This document shows, one piece after another, positions 1-19,439 of a stretch of DNA of 20,478 nucleotides. The position numbers and the translations under genes are program-made. Source of the DNA: Naegleria gruberi (lineage: Eukaryota); the NCBI GenBank assembly GCA_000004985.1, contig GG738957.1. One strand, written 5' to 3'. The notes beneath the pieces were generated by a model. It had not been told where the DNA came from. It did not search any database and saw only the letters and a program-made list of their open reading frames with translations. Each line of letters opens with the position of its first letter. The stretch's first letter is position 1.

Positions 1-2470
1 TCAATCTTCATAACATCAGTAAAATCATCAGATTGGACTACTGCAATGTAATCATCAAGCATGGAATGATACATTTTAAATCTTTTTCGTACTGAATCAA
101 ATCTTGACTTGTCAACGGTACCCGTAGATTGATATTCCTTCATTAAATATCTGTATTCCAACAAGATAGAAAATGGCGTAATTGGAAGAATAGCAGCGTT
201 GATCATTACTGTCAACTGGGTGTTCTGATTGGCTATAAAAACATTGCAAAGCTGGGCCACCAATACTAGCACAATAGAAATCACAATAAGGGAAATGAAA
301 AATGTAGAAAAACACCAGTTGGTACTTTCTCTTTTGATGGCTACTCTATAAATTTCTTTCGCCTTTTCTTGAGGATTAATCCTGTCATCCTTGTACATTG
401 ATGCAGATTCTAGCTCTGCAAAGTCTTCCAATTGTTGCTCAACACTTTTTCTCCTCTCATATAATGCCAAATTACGAGCCTCTTTCAAAGGATGAACTCT
501 GTTGGCTTTCTGGTGTGAGAAAGACATTTTACGTTTGCGAGCTTCATTCTCTTCCATTTGATTCGCTCTCTGTGAATATTTAACTCAAATCTCTTTAAAT
601 TCATATTACTTACTTCATAAAAATCATCAGCTGCCTCTTTCTCATAAAGAACTTGTTCCAAGAATCGAGCATAAGTTCTATAGACACTCTTCTCACGTTT
701 ACCAGAGACTAGATTCTGTAAAATGTCATTGCATGACTCAATTTCAATGGAAATGTTACGAATGGATGATTCGAGTGCTCTCTCAGAAGAATCCTCTGAT
801 AATAAGGTTTTCCAGAATGACTTTTTCAAAAGAAGAATATTTTCTTGCTTCATTAGAACTTTCTCCAAGTAATTACCAATTTCAGACATGTTAGTACATG
901 TTATTTCTTTCTTTCTTATCATGAAATTCATCTTGTCAATGAAATTGGCAGTATCTATCAATTCCTCAGTTTTCTTCAACAGCAATATGGAAGAAGCTTC
1001 AGAATTCTCAATCAAGTAGTATGTATAAACTATTGCAATAAGTCTATCTTGAAAGGATACATCAATCTTGGAGGAAGATACTGTCTTGATCAACAATTCG
1101 GCATAATCAGAATGTGAACTATCCTTCATAGACCAAATTATGAAATAATCCATATATTTAATTCCTCTGTCTAAGAATAGTTCCCCATCAAGAAGATTAG
1201 CTTCAATATTTTTCTTTACATAGGTTTGCATTAATCGAGAAACAATTTCCAATGACGCAAATCCACAAATAAACCCTAAAATGAATATTGAGAGAGCTAT
1301 TCCCATAAAAATTAAACCAACTGTCTCTGTGTCAATGTTTTTAGAGTTTGTCATGACAGAAAAAGATGTTAATGAGACAGCTGACCATAAAATAGATCCA
1401 ACTAACACTCCAAATATCACTGAATTCTCCACTCTTCTCATGAATGGAAGTCTATAGCATTGCAATACACAAAGTGAAAGGTTTTTCAAAATGAGCAAAA
1501 GTGGTGGAACGTAGTATAATGAAGGTGGAATAACTTGTTGAACAAATGCAAATCCAATATTCGAAGAGATCCACATAGTAGAAAAGAATGGACTGAATGA
1601 AATGAAAACTCCCCTACTCATAGGGTTAATGTCAACCATTATCAATGATGATATTATTGATGTAAATAATGTTGTTAATGCTCCAATGACAGAAATAACT
1701 ATCATTCCAATATTGAGAGAAGACCAACATGCATGTGATTGTTCGAATCCTGATAAGGTCATTGAAGTATAGTCACAATGTAAAAACCGCCCATAGCAAT
1801 ACATCATTGGAACTGCAAATAATACATGAAGGGTACTAAGCAGTCGAGTGATTTGCTTTGCTCTCTCCCAGTATTTACTTCCATTACTAAATGCCTTGTG
1901 ACAAAACAAAAACATTAGGAGAGTTGTGGCCGAAACTATGAATGAAATACAAGCAAAAGCAATCAATCCCTATTAAATCATTAATGGTTATGATTAAATC
2001 CAAAAACAACATACTTCATAGGGTAATAAATCAAAAGATAATGTCCATAGAAAAGCAACTGATCTCATAACCCACCCACCAACGAAACCCCACCTGTACT
2101 CTGAATAGGTGGACAAAGTTACTGTCTGTAATATCAGCCACAAATAAATAATGATAGAAATTAGTGGCCTCGTTGTTTCCTCGACATTCCTCAAAAGTAT
2201 TACTAGAGAGCCAAGCTCCTTAGTGATTTTCCTAGTAATATTGCCTTGGAGACTGGAATCTGATATCCATGATGAAAGACTCTCTTTGCTTTTTGTTGAT
2301 TGGGCTACATAACGTTCTGGTACACTAAATGTAACATTTTGTTGGGCATCATCTGATAGTGCTCCTGATGTGTCGACTGTTGTCTTGTCGTTATGAATAG
2401 AATATTGTTGTAATGCTGAATAGTTCTCTGCATATTCTCCAACGTTTTTTGTTGAGGGATTGAGGGACAT
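1..2470 (-). CDS. Multi-pass (about 9-10 TM) membrane protein of unknown family; three exons in the window (2470..2015, 1969..614, 569..1) and the 3' end continues past the left edge.
   Basis: The ATG at 2470 sits in an A-rich context (atcaaaaaaaATGtcc). Exon 1 (152 aa) has 2 TM helices. Exon 2 is the 485..1966 ORF, 7 TM helices followed by about 250 aa that look cytoplasmic. A GTAAGT donor after codon 616-614 and a CACAG acceptor ending at 570 switch from the frame of the 485..1966 ORF into a second frame that stays open from 569 to 1. That frame gives a protein-like sequence (RANQMEENEARKRK...WCFSTFFISLIVISIVLVLVAQL... with another TM). The ORF track shows only a 493-aa ORF, a 158-aa ORF and an out-of-frame shadow at 112..315. 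Confidence 0.6.
570..613 (-). other. 44-nt intron (GTAAGT...CACAG) producing a frame switch at the 3' end of the membrane-protein gene.
   Basis: The minus strand reads ...ttt tat gaa|gtaagtaatatgaatttaaagagatttgagttaaatattcacag|aga gcg aat caa atg.... After splicing, the downstream frame is open for 189 more codons to the window edge. Without splicing the gene ends 28 codons later at an in-frame TGA. Confidence 0.65.
1970..2014 (-). other. 45-nt intron (GTATGT...TTTAATAG) joining ORF 1994..2470 to ORF 485..1966 in frame (...LLPYE|GLIAFAC...).
   Basis: On the minus strand the sequence reads gaa|gtatgttgtttttggatttaatcataaccattaatgatttaatag|gga. The intron contains an in-frame TAA, and both flanking ORFs are hydrophobic TM-rich sequence. 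The length matches the second intron of the same gene. Confidence 0.5.
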
Positions 2471-4187: not shown

Positions 4188-5738
4188 ATGAGTAATGATG
4201 ACAACGACGTGCCCATGACCCCAAGGAGAGCATCCAGACAAGTCCAAACCAAATTCAACTCTCGTGATTATGCTCTCGTATTTGAAGAAGCTATCAAAGA
4301 TAAGGACTGTAGAGCAATTTTTAAGAGATTTCTAAAGAAGAGTCGTTCGGAAGAGTTGATGCAATTTTATGAAGAATATACAAAATATGATGAATTATTC
4401 TTGGAATGTTTGAATGCTAGTAGTTCTGGCGGTTCAGGTGGGAAAGGAAGGAGGAGTACCACAACATCAAAATCTGATGAGGATGACACAGTTTCGAATA
4501 GATTGAGTGTTAATAGTGCAGACTCTTCGACTAAATTGTTTAGGAAAGCAATTCAAAAGTTGTGGATTCAGGCACAAAGCATGATAGGTAGATTTATTCA
4601 ACAAGGTGCTGAACATGAAATTAATATTGGAAGTTTACAGAGAATGACATTTTCTAGGTGGCAAATATTGGATGACTTGACACCTGTTGTTTTTCAAGAA
4701 GCTAATTGGACTGATAATGAATATCAAACACTGTTGAATGTTTATCAAACAAAATTGGATCCTAATGTGTTATTTGAAGGATTATTAATAGCAGTATTAC
4801 AGGATTTAAAGCATGACCAATTTCCAAGATTTGTCAGAAATGATTTACTATTCGATTACTTACAAAAGAAGGGTGAGGTCTACACAAGAGCTATTGCCAT
4901 CAATGTTTCACATGGATTTAATGTTGATGTAAGATTTCAACCAAGTGATTTACAAAGTAAGGTCATTGATGAAAAGATGATTTTCTTTGGATTCACACTT
5001 TTACAAGATACACCAGATTGGGAACTAATCCTCGATAAGGATGATATTCAAGGATACATGTCCAAGACCAGTTACTTCTTTGGAAAGGATACAAGTGTTG
5101 GAAAGGAGAAGAAGGGTTTACGGCTGCATAAATCTGTTTACACATTGCCTTTCTGTATTGAGGATGTTTGGAAAATGGTGTGTAATCAAGAAAATCATTT
5201 AAAATTTGATCCAAAAGCAAATGAGGAATTCAAATTGAGAGATTTTAGGGAACCAAATCAAGATTGTGAATTTGCTGTAACGGAAACAGAAATGGGACCA
5301 AAATTCATGCCCATCATGAAAAGAAGACACTTTCCATTTATTACAACAACTTTTTATGACTCTCGTTTGAAAGGTTATGTGGTTGTCTGTAGAAGTTTCA
5401 ATGATTCTGATAATCACACCGATAGAATTCACTATGATGGTTTTGCATATACCATGTACATACCAAATGGTGATAAGGCAACCAATGTTTTCATGATTGA
5501 CTACTCAGATATCAAAATGCCATTCAAGGCGGCCATTTTGGAGAATACAGCCTACAAATTCCACATTCCAACAGTTCAGAAGGGTATGGTTAAGGTATTG
5601 AATGAACTCACCAATAATAGCACAAAGAATGTAGAGTGGAATGAGTCTATGGATGGAAGACACTGGTGGAAAATGGCAGAATTGCACAAAAATCGTTATC
5701 CTAACAAGTCATGGTATGATGAGTGGTTGAAAAAGTAG
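4188..5738 (+). CDS. RGS-domain protein with a C-terminal START/Bet v1-like domain, 516 aa.
   Basis: ATG in context aaaaccATGagt. RGS signature FEEAIKDKDCRAIFKRFLKKSRSEELMQFYEEYTKYDEL ... AQSMIGRFIQQGAEHEINIGSLQRM, interrupted by a Ser/Gly-rich low-complexity insert. The C-terminal roughly 220 aa (RRHFPFITTTFYDSRLKGYVVVCRSF...HYDGFAYTMYIPNGDKATNVFMIDYSDIKMPF) resembles the START lipid-binding fold by eye. Single exon. Confidence 0.6.
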   Translation: MSNDDNDVPMTPRRASRQVQTKFNSRDYALVFEEAIKDKDCRAIFKRFLKKSRSEELMQFYEEYTKYDELFLECLNASSSGGSGGKGRRSTTTSKSDEDDTVSNRLSVNSADSSTKLFRKAIQKLWIQAQSMIGRFIQQGAEHEINIGSLQRMTFSRWQILDDLTPVVFQEANWTDNEYQTLLNVYQTKLDPNVLFEGLLIAVLQDLKHDQFPRFVRNDLLFDYLQKKGEVYTRAIAINVSHGFNVDVRFQPSDLQSKVIDEKMIFFGFTLLQDTPDWELILDKDDIQGYMSKTSYFFGKDTSVGKEKKGLRLHKSVYTLPFCIEDVWKMVCNQENHLKFDPKANEEFKLRDFREPNQDCEFAVTETEMGPKFMPIMKRRHFPFITTTFYDSRLKGYVVVCRSFNDSDNHTDRIHYDGFAYTMYIPNGDKATNVFMIDYSDIKMPFKAAILENTAYKFHIPTVQKGMVKVLNELTNNSTKNVEWNESMDGRHWWKMAELHKNRYPNKSWYDEWLKK

Positions 5739-5992: not shown

Positions 5993-7666
5993 TTAAAATT
6001 CATTTCCCTTCTTCTTTTTCAATTTGTCAACCTTAATCTTGTCAATCTTCATTTCACGTTGGAAAGCAAGAGATTGCTTGAATCTGTGATGAGTATCCAT
6101 CATAACGAGGCATGTTTCCTTTTCCAAAATGTTAAACATATCTTCTGGAAGAGTTTCAATTTGCTTATCATTGAATTTGTCCAACTTATCCTTAACAGAA
6201 TCCACCAAAACATGTGATATATTGACAGCCATATCACCAGTCACTTCCAAGAATTCAGTAAATATTTCAAAAGCAACTTCATACTTTTTGGCTTCAACTT
6301 CTGCATATTCCCTTTCAAGTGGAGATTCCTTCTTCTTCTTTGATGATTGAGCTGACTCTGCTGAAATATCACTCGAAATATCACTCAATGCATTATTTTC
6401 TTGTCCAAATAATCTCATTTGCAAGTCAATTGAACGTTCACATAACGTTCTATAATATTGAATCTTTTCAAGAAGTAAATAATTTTCAATTGACTTTTCC
6501 TTTTCACAATGAACCTTAAAAAGAGCTCTCAAACCATCATCTTCCATTGTGTCCATTAACATGATTGCATTGGCACGACGAATCTTTTCCAAATATAAAG
6601 AATCACGATTAATAGCATAGGTAAAAACAAAGACAATGATTGGCATAATGACAAATAGTGAAATTGCAATAACAATCAATTGTACCAATGTAATACCCAA
6701 TACTTGTGAATCCTTTTCCTTTTCTCTGTTTTGTATAAAGGCAACTAATTTATCCAGACCTGACTGGAAAATTGCTTTTTCAGAATAGAAATAATCAGAA
6801 CTAATCTTTTCAATTGAATCTTCTGGTTGAGTTTTCAGCATTATCAATGCTTGATTATTCAAAGATACTACCATATTAGAAGCTTCAATAGCTGTAGAAT
6901 TGAATAAAGTTTGAATTGACTTGTCATCCACAGTTTTGAAAATTAAAAGTAAAGTTGATTTCATATCAGCAGTCTTGTTTTTAAATTCATTAATCACAGC
7001 TGAGTGACTTGGTTCATCAACATATCCTGTATAGACATGTTTCAACACCACAGCATTTGAACTTTCGAATAGAGAAGTGACCTTTCCAACAGCAATTAAA
7101 ATATCAGTTGCCTTTGTACTAGCAGTTGCAAATGCAGCAATTGCAACACCTGCCAAAACCAACAAACCAATGACAGTAACCAACATTCCCAATAAACAAG
7201 CCAATTTCATTGAAGTCAACTCAACCACACCACAACATGTACGTAAAGTAATTTTACTCTGACTAAATGAACTACCTGATTTACCACTTTCACTTGGTTG
7301 TCCAAAACCTACTTGAGATTGTCCAAGTTTCGTATTACCATTCACAGCACTACCAGATTGAATCGTAACTTGTTTCTTTCCATTACTATTATTATTAATA
7401 TTACCAGTGATACTTGTTCCACCATTTGTTTTGTTGGGATTATTAGGATTGCTGGTAATGAATGTATTTGTGTTTGGTGGTGTAAATTGATATTGTTGTT
7501 GAGTGGTTGGTTGTTGTTGTTGTTGTAGTGGAGGAGAGGATGAAGTTGAAGCCAATTCTATTGAAGTGGGGTTTGTTGTGTTAATAATATTGTTGGAATC
7601 ATGACTGTTGGAGAGTATTATTGGTGGTGGAGAGGTGGATGTCTCCGGAGAGGTTGTATTCATCAT
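5993..7666 (-). CDS. Receptor-like RGS protein, 557 aa: S/T/N/Q-rich N-terminus, TM1, about 160-aa extracellular loop, TM2, cytoplasmic RGS domain.
   Basis: Two strong TM helices (LACLLGMLVTVIGLLVLAGVAIAAFA and VLGITLVQLIVIAISLFVIMPIIVFVFTYAI). RGS motifs GLRALFKVHCEKEKSIENYLLLEKIQYYR ... KKYEVAFEIFTEFLEVTGDMAVNISHVL ... MMDTHHRFKQSLAFQ. Convergent with the previous gene, with 254 bp between the stops. Confidence 0.65.
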   Translation of the reverse strand: MMNTTSPETSTSPPPIILSNSHDSNNIINTTNPTSIELASTSSSPPLQQQQQPTTQQQYQFTPPNTNTFITSNPNNPNKTNGGTSITGNINNNSNGKKQVTIQSGSAVNGNTKLGQSQVGFGQPSESGKSGSSFSQSKITLRTCCGVVELTSMKLACLLGMLVTVIGLLVLAGVAIAAFATASTKATDILIAVGKVTSLFESSNAVVLKHVYTGYVDEPSHSAVINEFKNKTADMKSTLLLIFKTVDDKSIQTLFNSTAIEASNMVVSLNNQALIMLKTQPEDSIEKISSDYFYSEKAIFQSGLDKLVAFIQNREKEKDSQVLGITLVQLIVIAISLFVIMPIIVFVFTYAINRDSLYLEKIRRANAIMLMDTMEDDGLRALFKVHCEKEKSIENYLLLEKIQYYRTLCERSIDLQMRLFGQENNALSDISSDISAESAQSSKKKKESPLEREYAEVEAKKYEVAFEIFTEFLEVTGDMAVNISHVLVDSVKDKLDKFNDKQIETLPEDMFNILEKETCLVMMDTHHRFKQSLAFQREMKIDKIKVDKLKKKKGNEF

Positions 7667-8413: not shown

Positions 8414-9724
8414 TTATTGATATTTATGCAATTCAGGATCTTTCAACAACCTTTCCATGTGCTCTCTCCACAAACTCAATTGAACAACTAAACTACCCTT
8501 CTCAACACCTTCCACAATTTTGAAAACGCCATCCAAAATTGTTGGAATTTCACCAACGAAAATTGGACTTTCGTTTGAGAATTTCAAATCGAATAGATTG
8601 AATGCAACCCATGAGGTGGCGAAAACATCAGTTCCAAATAGGACATGCATGTCTGATGGTCTAACTTTTTTAGAAACTGAAATCCAATCAATGAAATCTT
8701 GGACATGTTGTTTGTCCATGGTTCGGTTGACTGCATGTCTGGACACAGGTGCAAGAGTGGATAAATTGGAGTGGAGAATGGATTCGACAGAGATTCTATC
8801 AGATTGTCCATTCATTACTAGATAACCAAAGTAATCTTTTTGGATATTCAATGGTTTTCTTACATTACACGAATGTAAAAGACAAGAAGTTTGAGAATTC
8901 GAAAGGTTTCTTGCTTTGGTGATGAGTTTCCACATGTGTGAACAGAGAGCATCATTGGTACTAATCCATGAGTTTGCATTCGATAGTTCAATAGATGACA
9001 TTGCTTCCTTCTTCATGGCTTGAAGTTCTTTTTCACTGAATTTAATCATCTTGGCAGTACATTGACCAATCTTGGCATACAATTCTTCATAATTGATATG
9101 TTCTTCACTTTGAGTCCAGAATGGAAATGACTTTGGTGATTCCTTATTCGAAACCTTAATCACTTCATTCCTATTCAAGCAATCATATCGTATATTGTCA
9201 ATACTTTCACCCCTGAATAGTTGAGACCATCTATGCAAGAACTGAGCATGAGAATCACCATCTCCTAATTGATGTAACAATTCTGAAACTAACAAAACTC
9301 CACCACATTTGAAATAAGTAACTTGAATTTGAAGTGGAGCATCTTGAATGCCTTTCCATTGGGTGTATAGATCTTTAGGATATTGGTCGTAATCTCCCTT
9401 ATCGAAATCATCAAGGTTAAAATTGGCTTGTGCAATGGTGAAGGGAACACCACAAGTTTCGTTTCGAATATCTACAAACCATTCACCTTCGTTATTTCTT
9501 ACTGTTCTGCCGGCGAATATTGGAAAGATAGATAAAGTCTTTTCCAGTGCACTCATCAGTTCAGTTGCATTCATAAAGTTTGGTTCCGATTTTTCATTTC
9601 TATATGCAAATTGAAAGTGAAATGGAAGAGCAGGTGCCAAATTATCAAATACTGTCAATTTGACTAGTGTTTCTTTGGAAAGTAGTGGTTTGACAAGGAT
9701 TGGAGATTTGCTGACTTGTTGCAT
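8414..9724 (-). CDS. BAHD-family (HXXXD) acyl-CoA-dependent acyltransferase, 436 aa.
   Basis: TYFKCGGVLLVSELLHQLGDGDSHAQFLHRWSQLFRG matches the BAHD core F.CGG....HxxxDG....F...W...RG. Compare HCT RFKCGG...[22 protein letters not shown]. The C-terminal DFGWG motif is degenerate (DLKFSN). The ATG has an A-rich leader (aaaaaaaATGcaa). Confidence 0.7.
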   Translation of the reverse strand: MQQVSKSPILVKPLLSKETLVKLTVFDNLAPALPFHFQFAYRNEKSEPNFMNATELMSALEKTLSIFPIFAGRTVRNNEGEWFVDIRNETCGVPFTIAQANFNLDDFDKGDYDQYPKDLYTQWKGIQDAPLQIQVTYFKCGGVLLVSELLHQLGDGDSHAQFLHRWSQLFRGESIDNIRYDCLNRNEVIKVSNKESPKSFPFWTQSEEHINYEELYAKIGQCTAKMIKFSEKELQAMKKEAMSSIELSNANSWISTNDALCSHMWKLITKARNLSNSQTSCLLHSCNVRKPLNIQKDYFGYLVMNGQSDRISVESILHSNLSTLAPVSRHAVNRTMDKQHVQDFIDWISVSKKVRPSDMHVLFGTDVFATSWVAFNLFDLKFSNESPIFVGEIPTILDGVFKIVEGVEKGSLVVQLSLWREHMERLLKDPELHKYQ

Positions 9725-9888: not shown

Positions 9889-12472
9889 TTATAAACCATT
9901 CATGTATTTCACATCACTTTCTAACATGCTTTCAGTTACAACACCGATATTTACACAATATCTTGATAAATCAACATTCTCATTGATTTTCTTTCTTGAT
10001 AATTTAATCAAATGATCCCATAATTTGATTCTATCTGGTTGGTAGGTCTGTAATTCTTCAATTAATCCAATCATGTATTGAACATCTTCATCTGCCATTT
10101 GATTGGTAAACATTGACACGAATTTTTCACATAGCATTGCCAGCTTGTCATTTAATTTCTTTGATTCCAATTCATAAAGCCATTCATCTTCTTTCACATT
10201 ATTGCTTCTTATCAACTCATACACTGTTTGCACATTTTCAAATCCAGAGAAATGTTCACTCGAATATCGGTCAACTGGAGCAAACACAAAGCGAGAATTT
10301 GCCTTATGATTCAAATAGGTACTCTCATCTACAAGAATATTAGTAGAAATAACACTATTCAAATAAGCCAAATCTCTGGAGCATTTCATCGAACGTCCAA
10401 ACATTGCATAATATCTCATTTGTTTGTTTCCGATATTTCCTTGAAGACATGATCCAGTACTTATTCCAATATGCAAGTCAACTGGTGTTTTCTTTTCATT
10501 GGTTAATGTTTCATTGAGAGAATTGAAGAATGATTTGATTTTAAGGGATGTTTCTAGAATGGTAATGTTATCAGGGTGAATGACTGCATATTCATCAACA
10601 CTCTTCGTGTGAACATCAACTTTCATTGTCTTACATAGTTGGAGAATGTTAGTATAGCATTTTGATAGCAAATTACTCAAATCATAGGTGTTATCGATCA
10701 TGTTAAATCCTGTAATCTTGATATACATTACAGAGCTGTTAAGGGTTGACAAACCAATTTTGAAGAGATTCATCTTGTTATTGGTATTGTTATCAACACC
10801 AAGGAAGAATGATGAAGTATGTGAGGATTTCTCTTCCAAGTATGATGAGTTCTCCTTTTTTAGGTAATGTTGTTTGGCTGAATTTTCAATGACATGTTGA
10901 TCTGAAGGTGTTGTAATTACTTTAGGTTTCTGAGGATCATTACTTTCCAATTGATTAAGAATATTCTCTGGAAGGAAAGCTCTAAATTCCTGTAACCACT
11001 TGACTGTCAAGTACAAACTCACATAGATATTTCTAATTTCGGTAAAGATTGAAGAGTGTCTCTCGATTTCTTCCAAACTCATTACTTCAATCTTTGCAAA
11101 ATCGGATTGAATGATTCGAAGAGGTTTCGTTATGGCATATCCTATCAAGATACTAAACATCATTCCAATTAAGGTGACTCCAATAGCAACACCCAAAATG
11201 ACGTAACTGCTAAGAATGACATTTTCCATAATTTCACTCTCCTCACACACTATTGTCATTCTCCATTTCAAATTATCTATTGAATAGGATGAACTGGAAA
11301 TCATGTAGGAAATTCCATCTTCTCCTGTAACTTGTGTAATATCTCCTTCTGATACATTCATTGATAGATACTTGTTCATTAGTGAACCAGCATTTCGAAC
11401 TGTTACATTTCTTACTGGAATTCTGTCAAAACCAACTCCCGTAATATTCAAATTGGCTCCAATAATCATATCATTGGCATATTCAGTCAGAATGATATAT
11501 CCTCTATTCAAAATCTTTAATTTTGATAAAAAGGTTGAAATTTTACCTAGTGAAAGATTGATCTTTGAAATTCCAATTCTTCTCTTTTCGGCTGGCCACA
11601 CTGTTCTGTCGTAAACTGGAGATGAATAATAAATTGATTGAACTCCATCAGAGAGCACTATTTACATTCAAGAAAACAGCATGTGAATATAGTAAATAAA
11701 AAATATGTGAATATAGAAAGGAAATGAATAACTTACCCTTATAAGGAGGACCAAAACCACCAGGTGAAGTTGGATAGGCATTGAATATTCTCAATGATTC
11801 CTTGTAGTAATCTGTAGTATTTATAAAATACTTTGGAACGCTTGTTGAAACCTTATCATACATGGGCACCACTGATGTCAAATTCAAATCGCAAATGGTT
11901 AATTTTAGATTATTAAAATTTACGAAAGCCCAACTTTTGGTGTCCACAGCAAAAAGTCCATTATTATTCAATTCACCAAAACAAATATTCAACATTGTAA
12001 CATTGTTGTAAATTATTCTACTGTGAAAGTATGGAACTAGCGAACTATCGGTATTGATTACTTTTCTGTGATAATCATCAGCCAGAGTGATGGATAAACT
12101 TTTTGCTAGCATTAAGGGTCTATCAAGAAAGTTTATAATCTTCTCCTGGATAGTCTGGACAAGTACTTTTGTCGATTGTATTGATTCCCTTTGATGCATT
12201 ACATAAGCAGAGAGCCAAACACTGAATGATGTAGCAATGACCAATATCATGATTAGCATGACGAGGAATAACCTAAAGGAAAGACAAAAGCCTAGTAAGG
12301 GATTTCTATCATGTATGCTCTTACTACTCTGTATTTCCTCATTATTATTAATATTATTATTGTTGTTGTTGTTGTTGTGATTAATATTGTTAGTGGTTGT
12401 ATTGTTGTTACTGAAGGAATAGAGATTGCTTGCAGAATAGCTATCATGATGATGAGGTGCAATTCTAGTCAT
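9889..12472 (-). CDS. Receptor-type class III adenylate/guanylate cyclase, ACG-like topology, 834 aa in two exons (12472..11737 and 11657..9889).
   Basis: The first ATG (MTRIAPHHH) is at 12472; the ORF track's 'M' at 12568 is a GTG. Exon 1 has a poly-Asn tract, TM1 (FRLFLVMLIMILVIATSFSVWLSAYV) and an extracellular region. The extracellular region continues in exon 2 (about 340 aa in total, CHASE-like). It is followed by TM2 (VILSSYVILGVAIGVTLIGMMFSILIGYAI), a linker and the cyclase homology domain (...YIKITGFNMI...KSVDEYAV...DLHIGISTGSCLQGNIGNKQMRYYAMFGRSMKCSRDL). The exons are joined by a phase-1 GTAAGT...AAATAG intron (K|V-LSDG). Confidence 0.7.
11658..11736 (-). other. 79-nt phase-1 intron of the cyclase gene (GTAAGT...AAATAG).
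   Basis: The minus strand reads cct cct tat aag g|gtaagttattcatttcc...gaatgtaaatag|tg ctc tct gat gga. The 11648..12568 ORF otherwise terminates at TAA. The reading frame is restored exactly and the combined length (2505 nt) is divisible by 3. Confidence 0.75.
12338..12412 (-). repeat. (AAT/AAC)n simple-sequence repeat encoding a poly-Asn tract (NNINHNNNNNNNNINNN) in the cytoplasmic N-terminus of the cyclase.
   Basis: The plus strand shows attattattaatattattattgttgttgttgttgttgtg. Antisense reading gives the poly-Val 'shadow ORF' 12311..12538. Confidence 0.8.
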
Positions 12473-13036
12473 TTTGTTAGAGTTGGAGAGTTTAAAGTCA
12501 GCGAGATTGATACCACTATTAGACGCTGGTTCACATGATACAACCTTAATTGCGCACACAACAAACACCGTGGTTGGAGTGTTACTCCTTATATGATACT
12601 AACTGTGTGTAAGTTCTCTATCTCTCTCGCTTGTTGAGGAGTCACAAACATAACAGAATCAAAATGAAGGTTCATCATACCTCTTGATTTAGTGAGCGTA
12701 AAAATGGAGATTCTGCGAATGATTCTGTTGCGTGTTCAAATATTTCGCCTTAATGATATTAATTTGTGTGAGATGGTGACCAATTAGTGGTTTGTTGGCA
12801 TATAAGTTCGTATCACCTCGTTGCCTTAATGAGACAACTCAAGGTGGTTTTCTTACAGCACATGTTATTTTAAAAAGCAGGAATAGGATCACTGATTCCA
12901 CAACTATGGAATATTACTAACCTGACGTTTATATTTATTTTATATTTATTATACATTCATTTTATTTATAATGAATAATTGCATTTTGAATTTTCTTTAA
13001 AAAAAATACTTAAACAAACAATTTGTATTGTTAAAT

Positions 13037-14338
13037 ATGAGATTCGTTAAGCATATGCTAGCAGTAATTGTACCACAGTCGGAGATAGATGACTCGGTCG
13101 ATATAATTAGCAAGGTTGAATTTAGGGATGTTTGTTTTAATGTGTTTAGAATTGATAGTAATGGTGATTTAATTCCTCCCTCCACCAAGTTCTCCCAAAG
13201 AAAATTAGAGTTTCTTACTAATATTAAGGACATTTTGCAGAAAACCACAGGTGGAATGGCTCGTATTGGCTATCTAAGTAGGAAGGATCCAAGTGCTTCT
13301 GGTACTTGCTTTTATTTACTTCCCGATGTTGTAATTACCAACTCCCACGTTGTGAATACAGATCAAACCCCTTTCGTTTATAAAGGAACCTTTGAGGAGG
13401 CATCTAATGGTTATTTACAAAAGTTGAATCCTATTGAAAGAAAATTGCTCTTCTCTGGATCAGCCTTACAGAATGGAATAAGGAAATATAACCACTCCGT
13501 AACACGAGCACATTTCCCAAGTGTGGATGATGCTTATGTAGATCCAATACTTTCTTTGAGAGGAGATTTTGGATATATGGATGTTTCCTTGCACCAACTG
13601 AAATGCCTATCCAAGAATTTAGAAATGTCTAAAGTACTAATGATTCCGTGTCCTACACTCCTTCAAGTTTCGGATCCTATCTTCACTCTGCATTATCCAG
13701 GGATCGAGGGGTACCAATTTTCCAACCATAAAAGAGGAGAATGTGCAAACTATTTTAATTGGGCTCCCAACGACAATGTTGTTTCTAATTTGTTTCATGG
13801 TTTTGGAAAGCTATGTATTAGTACTGGTAAAGTATTGGCCCCATACGCAGAAATGAAAGATGAAAATGGAAACAATATTTGGGCTCCAAACACTTCACAT
13901 CAATACACATCTCTTAATTCTGATTTCCTTATAACAAATGAATCTGTAATGATGGGTTCTTCTGGTGGTTGTGTACAATCCCATGCTTGTGAGGTTGATG
14001 AGATTAATGGTGTGACATTGGTAGAGTTTCACGCCATCCATTTTGGAGGCGAATTTGTTAAATGTAAGAATTGCTTAAAGCACATCAAACAACAAATGAA
14101 TGTTAATGATGAATATCCATCTTTATTCCAAGGTTTACCTCGAGAATGGAACTTTTGCACAGATTGTCAAAATGGAATAGAACCTTCAAAAATGGTATAC
14201 AATTACTCTGTGTCTGTCCATCATCCATTGTTCAAACAGGTCTACAAGAAATTAATTTTGCCAGATTTGTTGAATGTGTTGAATATTGATTTGTCAGACA
14301 ATAGATTAGAACGATTGAGACAATATTTAGATAGTTGA
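13037..14338 (+). CDS. Trypsin/chymotrypsin-fold serine peptidase (Trypsin_2-like), 433 aa, with a C-terminal CxxC...CxxC zinc-ribbon-like motif.
   Basis: The first ATG is at 13037; the 13028 start in the track is a TTG. Catalytic His in GTCFYLLPDVVITNSHVV, compare DegP ILTNNHVV. Catalytic Ser in MMGSSGGCV, which is GxSGG. The C-terminus has CKNC(x20)CTDC. It is transcribed divergently from the cyclase, 564 bp away. Confidence 0.6.
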   Translation: MRFVKHMLAVIVPQSEIDDSVDIISKVEFRDVCFNVFRIDSNGDLIPPSTKFSQRKLEFLTNIKDILQKTTGGMARIGYLSRKDPSASGTCFYLLPDVVITNSHVVNTDQTPFVYKGTFEEASNGYLQKLNPIERKLLFSGSALQNGIRKYNHSVTRAHFPSVDDAYVDPILSLRGDFGYMDVSLHQLKCLSKNLEMSKVLMIPCPTLLQVSDPIFTLHYPGIEGYQFSNHKRGECANYFNWAPNDNVVSNLFHGFGKLCISTGKVLAPYAEMKDENGNNIWAPNTSHQYTSLNSDFLITNESVMMGSSGGCVQSHACEVDEINGVTLVEFHAIHFGGEFVKCKNCLKHIKQQMNVNDEYPSLFQGLPREWNFCTDCQNGIEPSKMVYNYSVSVHHPLFKQVYKKLILPDLLNVLNIDLSDNRLERLRQYLDS

Positions 14339-17823: not shown

Positions 17824-19439
17824 NNNNNNNNNNNNNNNNNNNNNNNNNNNNNNNNNNNNNNNNNNNNNNNNNNNNNNNNNNNNNNNNNNNNNNNNNNNNN
17901 NNNNNNNNNNNNNNNNNNNNNNNNNNNNNNNNNNNNNNNNNNNNNNNNNNNNNNNNNNNNNNNNNNNNNNNNNNNNNNNNNNNNNNNNNNNNNNNNNNNN
18001 NNNNNNNNNNNNNNNNNNNNNNNNNNNNNNNNNNNNNNNNNNNNNNNNNNNNNNNNNNNNNNNNNNNNNNNNNNNNNNNNNNNNNNNNNNNNNNNNNNNN
18101 NNNNNNNNNNNNNNNNNNNNNNNNNNNNNNNNNNNNNNNNNNNNNNNNNNNNNNNNNNNNNNNNNNNNNNNNNNNNNNNNNNNNNNNNNNNNNNNNNNNN
18201 NNNNNNNNNNNNNNNNNNNNNNNNNNNNNNNNNNNNNNNNNNNNNNNNNNNNNNNNNNNNNNNNNNNNNNNNNNNNNNNNNNNNNNNNNNNNNNNNNNNN
18301 NNNNNNNNNNNNNNNNNNNNNNNNNNNNNNNNNNNNNNNNNNNNNNNNNNNNNNNNNNNNNNNNNNNNNNNNNNNNNNNNNNNNNNNNNNNNNNNNNNNN
18401 NNNNNNNNNNNNNNNNNNNNNNNNNNNNNNNNNNNNNNNNNNNNNNNNNNNNNNNNNNNNNNNNNNNNNNNNNNNNNNNNNNNNNNNNNNNNNNNNNNNN
18501 NNNNNNNNNNNNNNNNNNNNNNNNNNNNNNNNNNNNNNNNNNNNNNNNNNNNNNNNNNNNNNNNNNNNNNNNNNNNNNNNNNNNNNNNNNNNNNNNNNNN
18601 NNNNNNNNNNNNNNNNNNNNNNNNNNNNNNNNNNNNNNNNNNNNNNNNNNNNNNNNNNNNNNNNNNNNNNNNNNNNNNNNNNNNNNNNNNNNNNNNNNNN
18701 NNNNNNNNNNNNNNNNNNNNNNNNNNNNNNNNNNNNNNNNNNNNNNNNNNNNNNNNNNNNNNNNNNNNNNNNNNNNNNNNNNNNNNNNNNNNNNNNNNNN
18801 NNNNNNNNNNNNNNNNNNNNNNNNNNNNNNNNNNNNNNNNNNNNNNNNNNNNNNNNNNNNNNNNNNNNNNNNNNNNNNNNNNNNNNNNNNNNNNNNNNNN
18901 NNNNNNNNNNNNNNNNNNNNNNNNNNNNNNNNNNNNNNNNNNNNNNNNNNNNNNNNNNNNNNNNNNNNNNNNNNNNNNNNNNNNNNNNNNNNNNNNNNNN
19001 NNNNNNNNNNNNNNNNNNNNNNNNNNNNNNNNNNNNNNNNNNNNNNNNNNNNNNNNNNNNNNNNNNNNNNNNNNNNNNNNNNNNNNNNNNNNNNNNNNNN
19101 NNNNNNNNNNNNNNNNNNNNNNNNNNNNNNNNNNNNNNNNNNNNNNNNNNNNNNNNNNNNNNNNNNNNNNNNNNNNNNNNNNNNNNNNNNNNNNNNNNNN
19201 NNNNNNNNNNNNNNNNNNNNNNNNNNNNNNNNNNNNNNNNNNNNNNNNNNNNNNNNNNNNNNNNNNNNNNNNNNNNNNNNNNNNNNNNNNNNNNNNNNNN
19301 NNNNNNNNNNNNNNNNNNNNNNNNNNNNNNNNNNNNNNNNNNNNNNNNNNNNNNNNNNNNNNNNNNNNNNNNNNNNNNNNNNNNNNNNNNNNNNNNNNNN
19401 NNNNNNNNNNNNNNNNNNNNNNNNNNNNNNNNNNNNNNN
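17824..19439. other. Assembly gap (1616 N) between the unique subtelomeric sequence and the telomere-associated sequence.
   Basis: The run of n is continuous. The ORFs reported across it (17723..19462, 17752..19446 and 17769..19457) are artefacts of translating N. Confidence 0.99.

What the first reader, a model, noticed from the sequence alone, without database searches (positions are those of the whole stretch)
9889..12472. Receptor-type cyclase with an extracellular sensor domain and non-canonical catalytic residues
The architecture is an N-terminal cytoplasmic poly-N stretch, TM1, about 340 aa extracellular, TM2, then a class III cyclase homology domain. This is the design of the Dictyostelium osmosensing adenylate cyclase ACG (CHASE-type sensor) and of trypanosomatid receptor cyclases. 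The size, 834 aa, is close to ACG. By eye, the motif at the first metal-binding Asp position (canonical F-A-D-I-x-G-F-T) reads Y-I-K-I-T-G-F-N, that is Asp to Lys. The transition-state Asn in the canonical G-D-T-V-N-x-A-S-R block appears as G-R-S-M-K-C-S-R. The second metal Asp (KSVDEYAV, canonical GD) and the G-x-x-x-G-x-x-G loop (HIGISTGSCLQGNIG) are retained. A homodimeric cyclase lacking one metal-binding Asp would be expected to be inactive, or to need a heterodimer partner. This copy could therefore be a pseudo-cyclase or regulatory receptor, or a cyclase with unusual chemistry.
Basis: partly seen in the sequence, partly recalled or inferred. Interest (0 to 1): 0.62.

Follow-up and report, generated by a model that had tools for sequence, protein, structure and literature searches.

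The report
Receptor with a dead cyclase domain
This Naegleria gruberi gene encodes a membrane receptor with a bacterial-type double-Cache sensor outside the cell and, inside, a cyclase-like domain that has lost five of its six catalytic residues; it belongs to a large conserved family with the same defect, so it probably signals without making cAMP or cGMP.

Summary
A two-exon gene on the minus strand (12472..9889, one 79-nt intron) encodes an 834-aa protein. Its order is poly-Asn N-terminus, TM1, ~300-aa ectodomain, TM2, HAMP-like segment, FRAFLP..L helix, low-complexity linker, class III cyclase homology domain (Pfam PF00211, 32.8 bits, E 6.8e-8), helical tail.

Three independent alignments put Lys559 at the first metal Asp and Lys670 at the transition-state Asn. 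Thr596 and Ala663 occupy the substrate-specifying positions. Asp674 sits at the transition-state Arg position, and Arg673 is one residue out of register. Only Asp600 is canonical, 1 of 6.

The sensor is a double-Cache (dCache_1) fold, not CHASE.

The window is a whole N. gruberi scaffold, and the gene is already annotated as D2W4I0, "predicted protein".

It is not a decaying pseudogene: 25 synonymous against 7 non-synonymous differences from a ~98% identical (DNA) copy.

Of 132 relatives, 126 have at most 2 canonical catalytic positions. They share derived features instead: an insert before the domain, loss of KGK, and a DEWxYE helix.

Neither catalytic half-site is complete, so a complementing heterodimer partner cannot rescue it. 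Most likely it is a non-catalytic pseudo-cyclase receptor. This has not been tested biochemically.

The parts
9889..12472 (-). Whole gene (ATG 12472 to stop 9889-9891). It encodes 834 aa. The GenBank annotation is D2W4I0 / EFC36027.1 / NAEGRDRAFT_54618, with a different acceptor site that gives 820 aa.
11737..12472 (-). Exon 1: residues 1-245 plus the first base of codon 246.
   Evidence: The start MTRI.P is conserved in homologues.
11658..11736 (-). Intron, 79 nt, GTAAGT...AATAG, phase 1.
   Evidence: It diverges more than the exons between the two near-identical copies. The N. lovaniensis intron lies 2 nt away.
9889..11657 (-). Exon 2: residues 246-834 plus the stop codon.
12290..12472 (-). 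Cytosolic N-terminus (residues 1-61) with a poly-Asn tract. It is poorly conserved.
   Evidence: The other copy has a 9-nt in-frame indel here.
12203..12289 (-). TM1 (about residues 62-90).
   Evidence: Hydropathy. A long helix in the model.
11215..12202 (-). Ectodomain (residues 91-393, interrupted by the intron). It has the double-Cache (dCache_1) fold and 7 N-glycosylation sequons.
   Evidence: Pfam dCache_1 E 5.6e-5, below the cut-off. Foldseek on the orthologue model matches dCache ligand-binding domains, E about 1e-8 to 1e-7, TM-score up to 0.75.
11134..11214 (-). TM2 (about residues 394-420).
10987..11133 (-). HAMP-like segment (residues 421-469; KPL...TEI...).
   Evidence: The family profile aligns end to end with Af1503 HAMP, but only at E about 0.1. 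Three of 10 relatives give weak Pfam HAMP hits at the same place. The query alone gives none.
10945..10986 (-). FRAFLPENILNQLE (residues 470-483). This is the most conserved stretch, and it resembles the helix that precedes canonical cyclase domains.
   Evidence: 100% identical to N. lovaniensis. The motif is present in 66 of 154 relatives. The resemblance to the cyclase transducer element rests on my own knowledge.
10774..10944 (-). Low-complexity linker (residues 484-540), predicted disordered. It is an insertion relative to canonical relatives.
   Evidence: 14% identity to the orthologue. pLDDT below 35. Spacing from the Pro to the metal position is 84 aa here, against about 30 in canonical relatives.
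10204..10773 (-). Degenerate class III cyclase homology domain (residues 541-730).
10717..10719 (-). Codon AAG = Lys559, at the position of the first metal-binding Asp.
10594..10596 (-). Codon GAT = Asp600, the second metal-binding Asp and the only canonical catalytic residue retained.
10372..10386 (-). Codons for K670-C-S-R673-D674. Lys is at the transition-state Asn position and Asp is at the Arg position. Arg673 is one residue out of register.
10171..10188 (-). DEWLYE (residues 736-741). This is the family signature at the start of the first helix of the tail.
   Evidence: W is present in 127 of 130 aligned relatives. The motif is absent from the three canonical relatives.
9892..10170 (-). 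C-terminal helical tail (residues 742-834): about three helices, weakly conserved.
   Evidence: The distant relative P0011 gives weak TPR hits.

Best explanation
The gene encodes a plasma-membrane receptor that derives from dCache-HAMP class III cyclases but no longer makes a cyclic nucleotide.

**Shown**

- The domain order is dCache_1-type ectodomain between two TM helices, a HAMP-like segment, a conserved FRAFLP..L helix, a disordered insert, a cyclase-homology fold, and a DEWxYE helical tail.
- Five of the six catalytic positions are non-canonical.
- These positions vary freely among relatives, while the structural glycines, R/K660 and DEWxYE are conserved.
- The gene is under purifying selection.

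**Inferred**

- A small extracellular ligand binds the dCache module of a dimer.
- The change passes through TM2 and the HAMP-like bundle to the FRAFLP helix.
- It then alters the arrangement of the catalytically dead cyclase-fold dimer and its helical tail.
- The dead domain and tail act as a regulated interaction surface. They could recruit a partner protein, or pair with and silence a competent cyclase domain. They do not act as an enzyme.
For: **The domain is a cyclase homology domain.** Pfam PF00211 scores above its cut-off, and the fold matches solved cyclases.

**The catalytic centre is gone.** In one HMM alignment, the CyaB and Rv1625c rows read D-K-D-T/D-N-R and the query reads K-T-D-A-K-D. 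The phmmer alignment to sGC alpha and the family-profile alignments to CyaB and Rv1625c agree.

**The family shares the defect.**

- Of 132 relatives, 126 have at most 2 of 6 canonical positions. The first metal position is R, K, T, Q or E, and the Asn position is E, K, S, N or Q. No alternative conserved polar set appears.
- Conserved instead are G652, N653, G655, R/K660, G666, R705-P706 (query has A705) and D736-E737-W738-x-Y740-E741.
- Three relatives with the same N-terminal layout are fully canonical. They keep KGK, lack DEWxYE, and have about 30 aa between the helix Pro and the metal Asp. The degenerate members have 51-121 aa. The degeneracy is therefore a coherent derived state.

**The gene is kept.**

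- There are 25 synonymous against 7 non-synonymous differences from the ~98% identical (DNA) copy.
- It is about 50% identical to the N. lovaniensis orthologue. The beta4-alpha4 region of the dead site is about 80% identical and the FRAFLP helix 100%.

**The sensor is dCache.**

**Established knowledge.** Class III cyclases use two-metal catalysis, and both Asp residues are required.
Against: - There are no biochemical data.
- Some class III cyclases with non-canonical substrate residues are active (my own knowledge, for example Rv0386). Arg673 lies three residues after Lys670 on the same helix, so it might partly replace the canonical Arg.
- Lys or Arg at the metal position in 58 of 132 relatives could allow metal-independent nucleotide binding.
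- The structure models are of moderate quality (mean pLDDT 57-58), and the ectodomain fold was predicted on the orthologue, not on the query.
- The HAMP assignment is weak (E about 0.1).
- The disordered insert makes it unclear how a signal would reach the cyclase fold.
- No interaction partner is known.
Confidence: 0.6

Rival explanations
1. It is one half of a heterodimeric cyclase, as in sGC alpha/beta or mammalian C1/C2. A partner subunit would supply the missing residues for a single active site.
For: The best single-sequence PDB match is sGC alpha, itself a heterodimer subunit. Naegleria has at least 81 cyclase genes, so partners are available (PMC9928731). A few distant relatives keep both Asp residues but lack Asn and Arg, which is the C1-like pattern (P0103, P0138).
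Against: A complementing subunit must bring either both Asp residues or the Lys/Asp/Asn/Arg set. This protein has K559/D600 and T596/A663/K670/D674, so it has neither. No member of the top 132 relatives has the C2-like pattern without also being fully canonical. There is no second cyclase domain in the window in any frame, and none next to the N. lovaniensis orthologue.
Confidence: 0.08
2. It is a dominant-negative or modulating partner. The dead domain pairs with a competent cyclase domain and switches it off or tunes it in response to the extracellular ligand. This is a specific version of the pseudo-enzyme reading.
For: In a head-to-tail class III dimer each active site uses residues from both subunits (established knowledge). 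A heterodimer with this protein would therefore have two incomplete sites. The cyclase fold and its beta4-alpha4 region are well conserved between orthologues.
Against: There is no evidence of heterodimerisation. The family-specific DEWxYE tail and the insert suggest a function of its own. This idea cannot be told apart from the scaffold idea with sequence data.
Confidence: 0.17
3. It is an active cyclase, or another nucleotidyl-transferase or nucleotide-binding sensor, that uses unusual residues.
For: The gene is under purifying selection. The pseudo-active-site region is the best conserved part of the domain in orthologues. R/K660 and the GN.G loop are retained. Arg673 lies close to the canonical Arg position.
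Against: The six positions are not conserved across the family, so no common chemistry is maintained. A Lys sits at a metal-ligand position. The KGK strand that contacts the gamma-phosphate in canonical enzymes is lost (its role is my own knowledge).
Confidence: 0.12
4. It is a decaying pseudogene or a gene-model artefact.
For: The window is a small 20-kb scaffold with a near-identical second copy elsewhere.
Against: The reading frame is intact over 834 codons. There are 25 synonymous against 7 non-synonymous differences. Orthologues and paralogues occur in N. lovaniensis, N. fowleri and Willaertia with the same layout. The intron position is conserved. The whole cyclase domain lies within one exon.
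Confidence: 0.03

Closest known systems
Bacterial-type dCache-TM-HAMP class III adenylate cyclases. Examples are the canonical relatives P0123, P0144 and P0069 found here; M. tuberculosis Rv2435c, named as a double-Cache cyclase in PMC4822843; and the 'pan-eukaryotic' TM-HAMP-Cache1-NCIII subfamily noted in the Euglena genome paper, PMC6366073.
   Same: The domain order is the same: TM1, double-Cache ectodomain, TM2, HAMP-like segment, LP-helix, cyclase homology domain. The closest solved cyclase domain by family profile is CyaB, class IIIb.
   Different: The canonical relatives have all six catalytic residues, the KGK strand, about 30 aa between the helix and the first strand, and no DEWxYE. 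This protein has 1 of 6, an 84-aa spacing, no KGK, and the DEWxYE tail.
Dictyostelium ACG (CHASE-type osmosensing cyclase) and trypanosomatid receptor adenylate cyclases (ESAG4/GRESAG4).
   Same: The general idea is shared: an extracellular sensor, a membrane anchor, and one intracellular class III domain that must dimerise.
   Different: The sensor here is dCache, not CHASE. From my own knowledge, trypanosomatid enzymes have one TM helix and a periplasmic-binding-protein-like ectodomain. Also from my own knowledge, both of those groups are catalytically competent, whereas this domain lacks the catalytic set.
Degenerate half-sites of heterodimeric cyclases: sGC alpha/beta, mammalian AC C1/C2, and fungal rhodopsin-cyclase heterodimers.
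   Same: It is a cyclase-homology fold in which catalytic residues have been replaced. The best single-sequence PDB hit is sGC alpha.
   Different: In those systems each subunit still contributes one complete half of a single active site. Here both halves are incomplete.
Receptor pseudo-enzymes in general, such as receptor pseudokinases (reviewed in PMC13259870 and PMC10211241) and degenerate GGDEF/EAL receptors such as LapD (PMC6050961).
   Same: The logic is shared: a sensor coupled to a catalytically dead enzyme fold that is kept by selection and used for binding or allostery.
   Different: The fold is different. No ligand, nucleotide or partner is known for this family.

Membership tests
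Class III nucleotidyl cyclase homology domain (Pfam PF00211): homology | Sequence and fold of the cyclase homology domain. | tested here: met
   32.8 bits against a cut-off of 21.9, E 6.8e-8. Family profile against CyaB, E 1.3e-11. Foldseek TM-score about 0.6 to many solved cyclase domains.
Class III nucleotidyl cyclase: enzyme | Two metal-binding Asp residues. | tested here: not met
   K559 at the first position and D600 at the second.
Class III nucleotidyl cyclase: enzyme | Substrate-specifying pair (Lys plus Asp/Thr for ATP; Glu plus Cys for GTP). | tested here: not met
   T596 and A663. K597 is one residue out of register.
Class III nucleotidyl cyclase: enzyme | Transition-state Asn and Arg on helix alpha4. 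| tested here: not met
   K670 and D674. R673 is one residue early.
Class III nucleotidyl cyclase: enzyme | Measured cyclase activity. | not testable with these tools
   This needs an enzyme assay.
dCache_1 extracellular sensor (PF02743) | Profile match above the curated cut-off. | tested here: inconclusive
   23.2 bits, E 5.6e-5, against a cut-off of 45, for the isolated ectodomain. The orthologue gives 18.2 bits. A family profile finds no solved dCache domain by sequence.
dCache_1 extracellular sensor (PF02743) | Long N-terminal helix followed by two PAS-like alpha/beta modules between two TM helices. | tested here: met
   The secondary-structure order in the model of orthologue P0002 fits. 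The top 50 Foldseek hits are dCache chemoreceptor and kinase sensor domains or whole dCache chemoreceptors, probability 1.00, TM-score up to 0.75. This was done on the 50% identical orthologue because the spliced query could not be submitted.
CHASE domain (ACG-type sensor) | Profile or fold match to CHASE. | tested here: not met
   No CHASE hit at E up to 10. The fold search returns dCache domains.
HAMP domain (PF00672) | About 50 residues directly after TM2: helix with an N-terminal Pro, a connector, and a second helix starting with Glu. | tested here: inconclusive
   The query gives no Pfam hit. Three of 10 relatives give E 4e-4 to 0.06 at the homologous place. The family profile aligns end to end with Af1503 HAMP at E about 0.1, and 13 of the 20 listed hits are Af1503 HAMP constructs.
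Heterodimeric cyclase subunit (sGC or C1/C2 type) | One complete half-site: either both Asp residues, or the Lys/Glu, Asp/Cys, Asn and Arg set. | tested here: not met
   Neither half is complete.
Degenerate DEWxYE cyclase-like receptor family (defined here) | Insert of more than 50 aa between the FLP helix and strand 1; loss of the catalytic set; DEWxYE helix after the domain. | tested here: met
   84-aa spacing, 1 of 6 catalytic residues, and DEWLYE at 736-741.

The most novel reading that the evidence does not exclude
A large share of the famous '100 cyclases' of Naegleria, with relatives in Willaertia and at least one euglenid, would not be cyclases at all. They would form a distinct class of receptor pseudo-enzymes. 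In this class a dCache or other sensor and a HAMP segment drive a catalytically dead cyclase fold with its own signature: an insert after the LP-helix, loss of KGK, and a DEWxYE helix. This module would signal by protein binding or by silencing true cyclases.
Probability: 0.5. Interest if true: 0.65.

Novelty: new variant of a known kind. Interest (0 to 1): 0.5.

Why it matters
**Counting cyclases.** Cyclase-domain counts are used to argue that Naegleria has unusually rich cAMP/cGMP signalling. If a whole conserved clade of these receptors cannot make cyclic nucleotides, those counts overstate the enzymatic capacity. They would also hide a separate receptor output that nobody has studied.

**A testable pseudo-enzyme.** It would add the class III cyclase fold to the list of enzyme folds reused as receptor pseudo-enzymes. 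The test set is clear: a few point reversions and an activity assay.

**Cache domains in eukaryotes.** Cache-type sensors appear to be under-counted, because this family falls below the Pfam threshold.

**Limits.** The gene itself is already annotated, and the architecture has been noted before. The new element is the family-wide loss of the catalytic centre and the derived signature that goes with it.

Tried and rejected
- The spliced 834-aa protein could not be submitted for structure prediction or for the representative search. I used the exon-2 product and the N. lovaniensis orthologue instead.
- A CHASE domain was not found.
- A sequence search of the ectodomain family profile against solved structures gave only a chance hit. 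The dCache assignment therefore rests on a sub-threshold Pfam hit plus the fold search.
- A Pfam HAMP search on the query itself gave nothing.
- The C-terminal tail shows no similarity to the TPR region of the TmcB-like gene in the same window.
- No second cyclase domain exists in any of the six frames of the window, and none lies next to the N. lovaniensis orthologue.
- The pseudogene idea is rejected on the synonymous to non-synonymous ratio.
- Literature searches for pseudo-cyclases and for Naegleria cyclases found no description of this degeneracy. The held text of the Actinobacteria cyclase survey did not mention Rv2435c.
- I did not establish the taxonomic origin of most of the 150 relatives. 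Only 10 were looked up.
Full report
**1. What is in the sequence**

The region holds two minus-strand reading frames, 12568..11648 and 11658..9889. A 79-nt intron with GTAAGT...AATAG ends joins them. The gene is exon 1 at 12472..11737 and exon 2 at 11657..9889, and it encodes 834 aa.

The gene model is well supported:

- The junction reads ..GPPYK-V-LSDGVQSIYYSSPVYDR... This segment is conserved in every homologue found.
- The N. lovaniensis orthologue has a single 75-nt intron 2 nt from the same place.
- Against a ~98% identical second copy at the DNA level (locus L001), the intron carries 5 substitutions and a 3-nt indel in 79 nt. Exon 1 carries 6 substitutions in 736 nt plus a 9-nt in-frame change in the poly-Asn tract.

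Exact look-ups of neighbouring proteins show that the window is a complete 20,478-bp scaffold of Naegleria gruberi. The gene is already annotated as D2W4I0 / EFC36027.1 / NAEGRDRAFT_54618, "predicted protein", 820 aa. The annotated model uses an acceptor 42 nt further downstream (11616|11615). That removes 14 residues (LSDGVQSIYYSSPV) that all homologues keep.

**2. Architecture**

| Part | Residues | Evidence |
|---|---|---|
| Poly-Asn N-terminus | 1-61 | |
| TM1 | ~62-90 | hydropathy |
| Ectodomain, 7 N-x-S/T sequons | 91-393 | |
| TM2 | ~394-420 | hydropathy |
| HAMP-like segment | 421-469 | |
| FRAFLPENILNQLE helix | 470-483 | |
| Low-complexity linker | 484-540 | |
| Cyclase homology domain | 541-730 | |
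| DEWLYE and helical tail | 736-834 | |

*Ectodomain.* It is about 300 aa, not 340. Scanned alone, it gives a sub-threshold dCache_1 match (E 5.6e-5, 23.2 bits against a cut-off of 45) and no CHASE match. The spliced protein could not be submitted for modelling, so I modelled the 50% identical N. lovaniensis orthologue. The model shows a long helix, two alpha/beta modules and a second long helix. Its best structural matches are dCache ligand-binding domains of bacterial chemoreceptors and kinases, including Mlp24, Tlp3, PctA/B/C, TlpA and mmHK1S-Z3. Probability is 1.00 and TM-score reaches 0.75. The sensor is a double-Cache domain, not a CHASE domain.

*HAMP-like segment.* After TM2 comes KPL...TEI.... 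The query alone gives no Pfam HAMP hit, but three of ten relatives give weak hits at the homologous place. A 30-member family profile aligns end to end with the Af1503 HAMP structure. The E-value is only about 0.1, although 13 of the 20 listed hits are Af1503 HAMP constructs. I call this HAMP-like, not proven.

*FRAFLP helix and linker.* FRAFLPENILNQLE is 100% identical to the orthologue and is the best conserved stretch in the protein. From my own knowledge it resembles the LP..VA..L helix that directly precedes canonical cyclase domains. Here a low-complexity linker follows it. The linker is 14% identical to the orthologue and has pLDDT below 35.

*Cyclase homology domain.* Pfam PF00211 matches residues 553-709 at 32.8 bits against a cut-off of 21.9, E 6.8e-8. 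A family profile finds P. aeruginosa CyaB at E 1.3e-11 and Rv1625c at 5e-7. The model of the exon-2 product has pLDDT 70-85 in this region and superposes on many solved cyclase domains at TM-score about 0.6.

*Tail.* A helix starting at DEWLYE (736-741) and about two further helices end the protein.

**3. The catalytic positions**

Three alignments agree: phmmer against sGC alpha, the family profile against CyaB and Rv1625c, and one joint HMM alignment that contains the reference rows. In the joint alignment the references read D-K-D-T-N-R (CyaB) and D-K-D-D-N-R (Rv1625c).

| Catalytic position | Canonical | This protein | Note |
|---|---|---|---|
| First metal ligand | Asp | Lys559 | |
| Substrate-specifying 1 | Lys | Thr596 | Lys597 is one residue later |
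| Second metal ligand | Asp | Asp600 | retained |
| Substrate-specifying 2 | Asp/Thr | Ala663 | |
| Transition state | Asn | Lys670 | |
| Transition state | Arg | Asp674 | Arg673 is one residue early |

The loss of both substrate-specifying residues was missed. Only 1 of 6 positions is canonical.

**4. It is a family trait, not an accident**

A profile search of 1.84 billion representatives found 208 proteins at E up to 1e-30. Many match over the full length. Many others match only from TM2 onward, behind different N-terminal regions. Sampled sources are N. lovaniensis, N. gruberi, N. fowleri, Willaertia magna, the euglenid Entosiphon, and metagenomes.

The catalytic centre is lost across the family:

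- Of 132 relatives with all six positions aligned, 126 have at most 2 canonical positions and 3 have all six.
- The positions are variable, not replaced by a new fixed set. The first metal position is R30, K28, T14, Q10, E10. The Asn position is E24, K19, S16, N14, Q12.
- Conserved instead are the structural glycines, the GN.G loop, R/K660, R705-P706 (query has A705) and DEWxYE, with W in 127 of 130.

The three fully canonical relatives (P0123, P0144, P0069) differ in a consistent way:

- They keep the KGK strand.
- They lack DEWxYE.
- They have about 30 residues between the helix Pro and the metal Asp.
- The degenerate members have 51-121 residues there (median 79; 84 in this protein).

Loss of the catalytic set, the insert, loss of KGK and gain of DEWxYE therefore travel together. 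This is what one expects if an active dCache-HAMP cyclase gave rise to a non-catalytic lineage.

**5. The gene is maintained**

- Between the window and the ~98% identical (DNA) copy, exon 2 has 20 synonymous and 6 non-synonymous codon differences. Exon 1 has about 5 and 1. That is roughly a tenfold excess of synonymous change per site.
- Against the N. lovaniensis orthologue the cyclase fold is 53% identical, similar to the ectodomain at 57%. The beta4-alpha4 stretch that contains the dead site is about 80% identical.
- It is not a pseudogene.

**6. How it most likely works**

Class III cyclases act as head-to-tail dimers. One subunit gives the two Asp residues, and the other gives Lys/Asp/Asn/Arg (established knowledge).

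This protein has neither complete half. A homodimer has no functional site. A partner cannot complement it in the sGC or C1/C2 manner. Pairing with a fully competent domain would give two incomplete sites.

No other cyclase domain lies in the window or beside the orthologue.

My best reading, at confidence about 0.6:

- A ligand binds the dCache module.
- The signal passes through TM2, the HAMP-like bundle and the FRAFLP helix.
- The dead cyclase fold with its DEWxYE tail acts as a regulated binding module.

Whether it binds a partner protein, silences true cyclases, or still binds a nucleotide is inference. The disordered insert leaves the coupling step unexplained.

**7. Comparison with what is known**

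- The Cache-HAMP-cyclase layout has been noticed before. One paper mentions a single Cache-containing "bacterial-type adenylate cyclase" in Naegleria (PMC4822843).
- The Euglena genome paper describes a TM-HAMP-Cache1-NCIII subfamily related to N. gruberi genes (PMC6366073).
- Naegleria is credited with at least 81 cyclases (PMC9928731).
- I found no paper that notes the loss of the catalytic centre or the DEWxYE signature. The library does not cover subscription journals.
- ACG and the trypanosomatid receptor cyclases are functional analogies only.

**8. Verdict**

The gene is an annotated "predicted protein". The architecture is known. The family-wide degeneracy appears to be undescribed. 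I rate it a new variant of a known kind, interest 0.5.

Noticed in passing
window 11615-11657: The GenBank/RefSeq model of this gene (D2W4I0, 820 aa) uses an acceptor at 11616|11615. That deletes 14 residues (LSDGVQSIYYSSPV) which all homologues conserve. The acceptor at 11658|11657 (834 aa) fits better.
   Followed up: yes
whole window; L001 1-5002: The window is an entire 20,478-bp N. gruberi scaffold. A ~98% identical (DNA) second copy of the gene and its neighbour exists on an ENA contig (ERZ929261). A partial copy, D2VDK2, lies on an 820-kb N. gruberi scaffold and carries variants also seen in the ENA copy. The small scaffold may be an alternative haplotype or a recent duplicate.
   Followed up: partly
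window 12370-12400: The poly-Asn tract differs by a 9-nt in-frame indel between the two copies.
   Followed up: yes
window 4188-5738 (+) and 5993-7666 (-): Two genes in convergent orientation each carry an RGS domain (Pfam PF00615, E 1.4e-7 and 2e-5). They are further signalling genes close to the receptor.
   Followed up: partly
window 8414-9724 (-): A BAHD/HXXXD-type acyltransferase (Pfam Transferase, E 5.5e-46) lies directly downstream. The same adjacency is seen in L001 but not in N. lovaniensis.
   Followed up: partly
window 485-2470 (-): A multi-pass membrane protein has a TmcB-type TPR region (PF25474, E 1.1e-7), probably split over two reading frames. It has no cyclase domain and no similarity to the receptor's tail.
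   Followed up: partly
window 13028-14338 (+): A 436-aa reading frame shows only a faint Trypsin_2 hit (E 0.15). By eye it has a TNSHV and a GSSGG motif, like a serine protease. It is annotated only as a predicted protein.
   Followed up: no
window 17824-19439: A run of 1,616 N (assembly gap). The long ORFs listed across it are artefacts.
   Followed up: yes
P0002, P0003, P0005 and other Naegleria paralogues: Several Naegleria proteins share this dCache-like ectodomain but fall below the Pfam dCache_1 cut-off. The published statement that Naegleria has a single Cache protein (PMC4822843) is therefore probably an undercount.
   Followed up: partly
P0103, P0138 (Entosiphon): A few distant family members keep both metal Asp residues but lack Asn and Arg, which is the C1-like pattern. 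Some branches of the family might still form heterodimeric enzymes.
   Followed up: no
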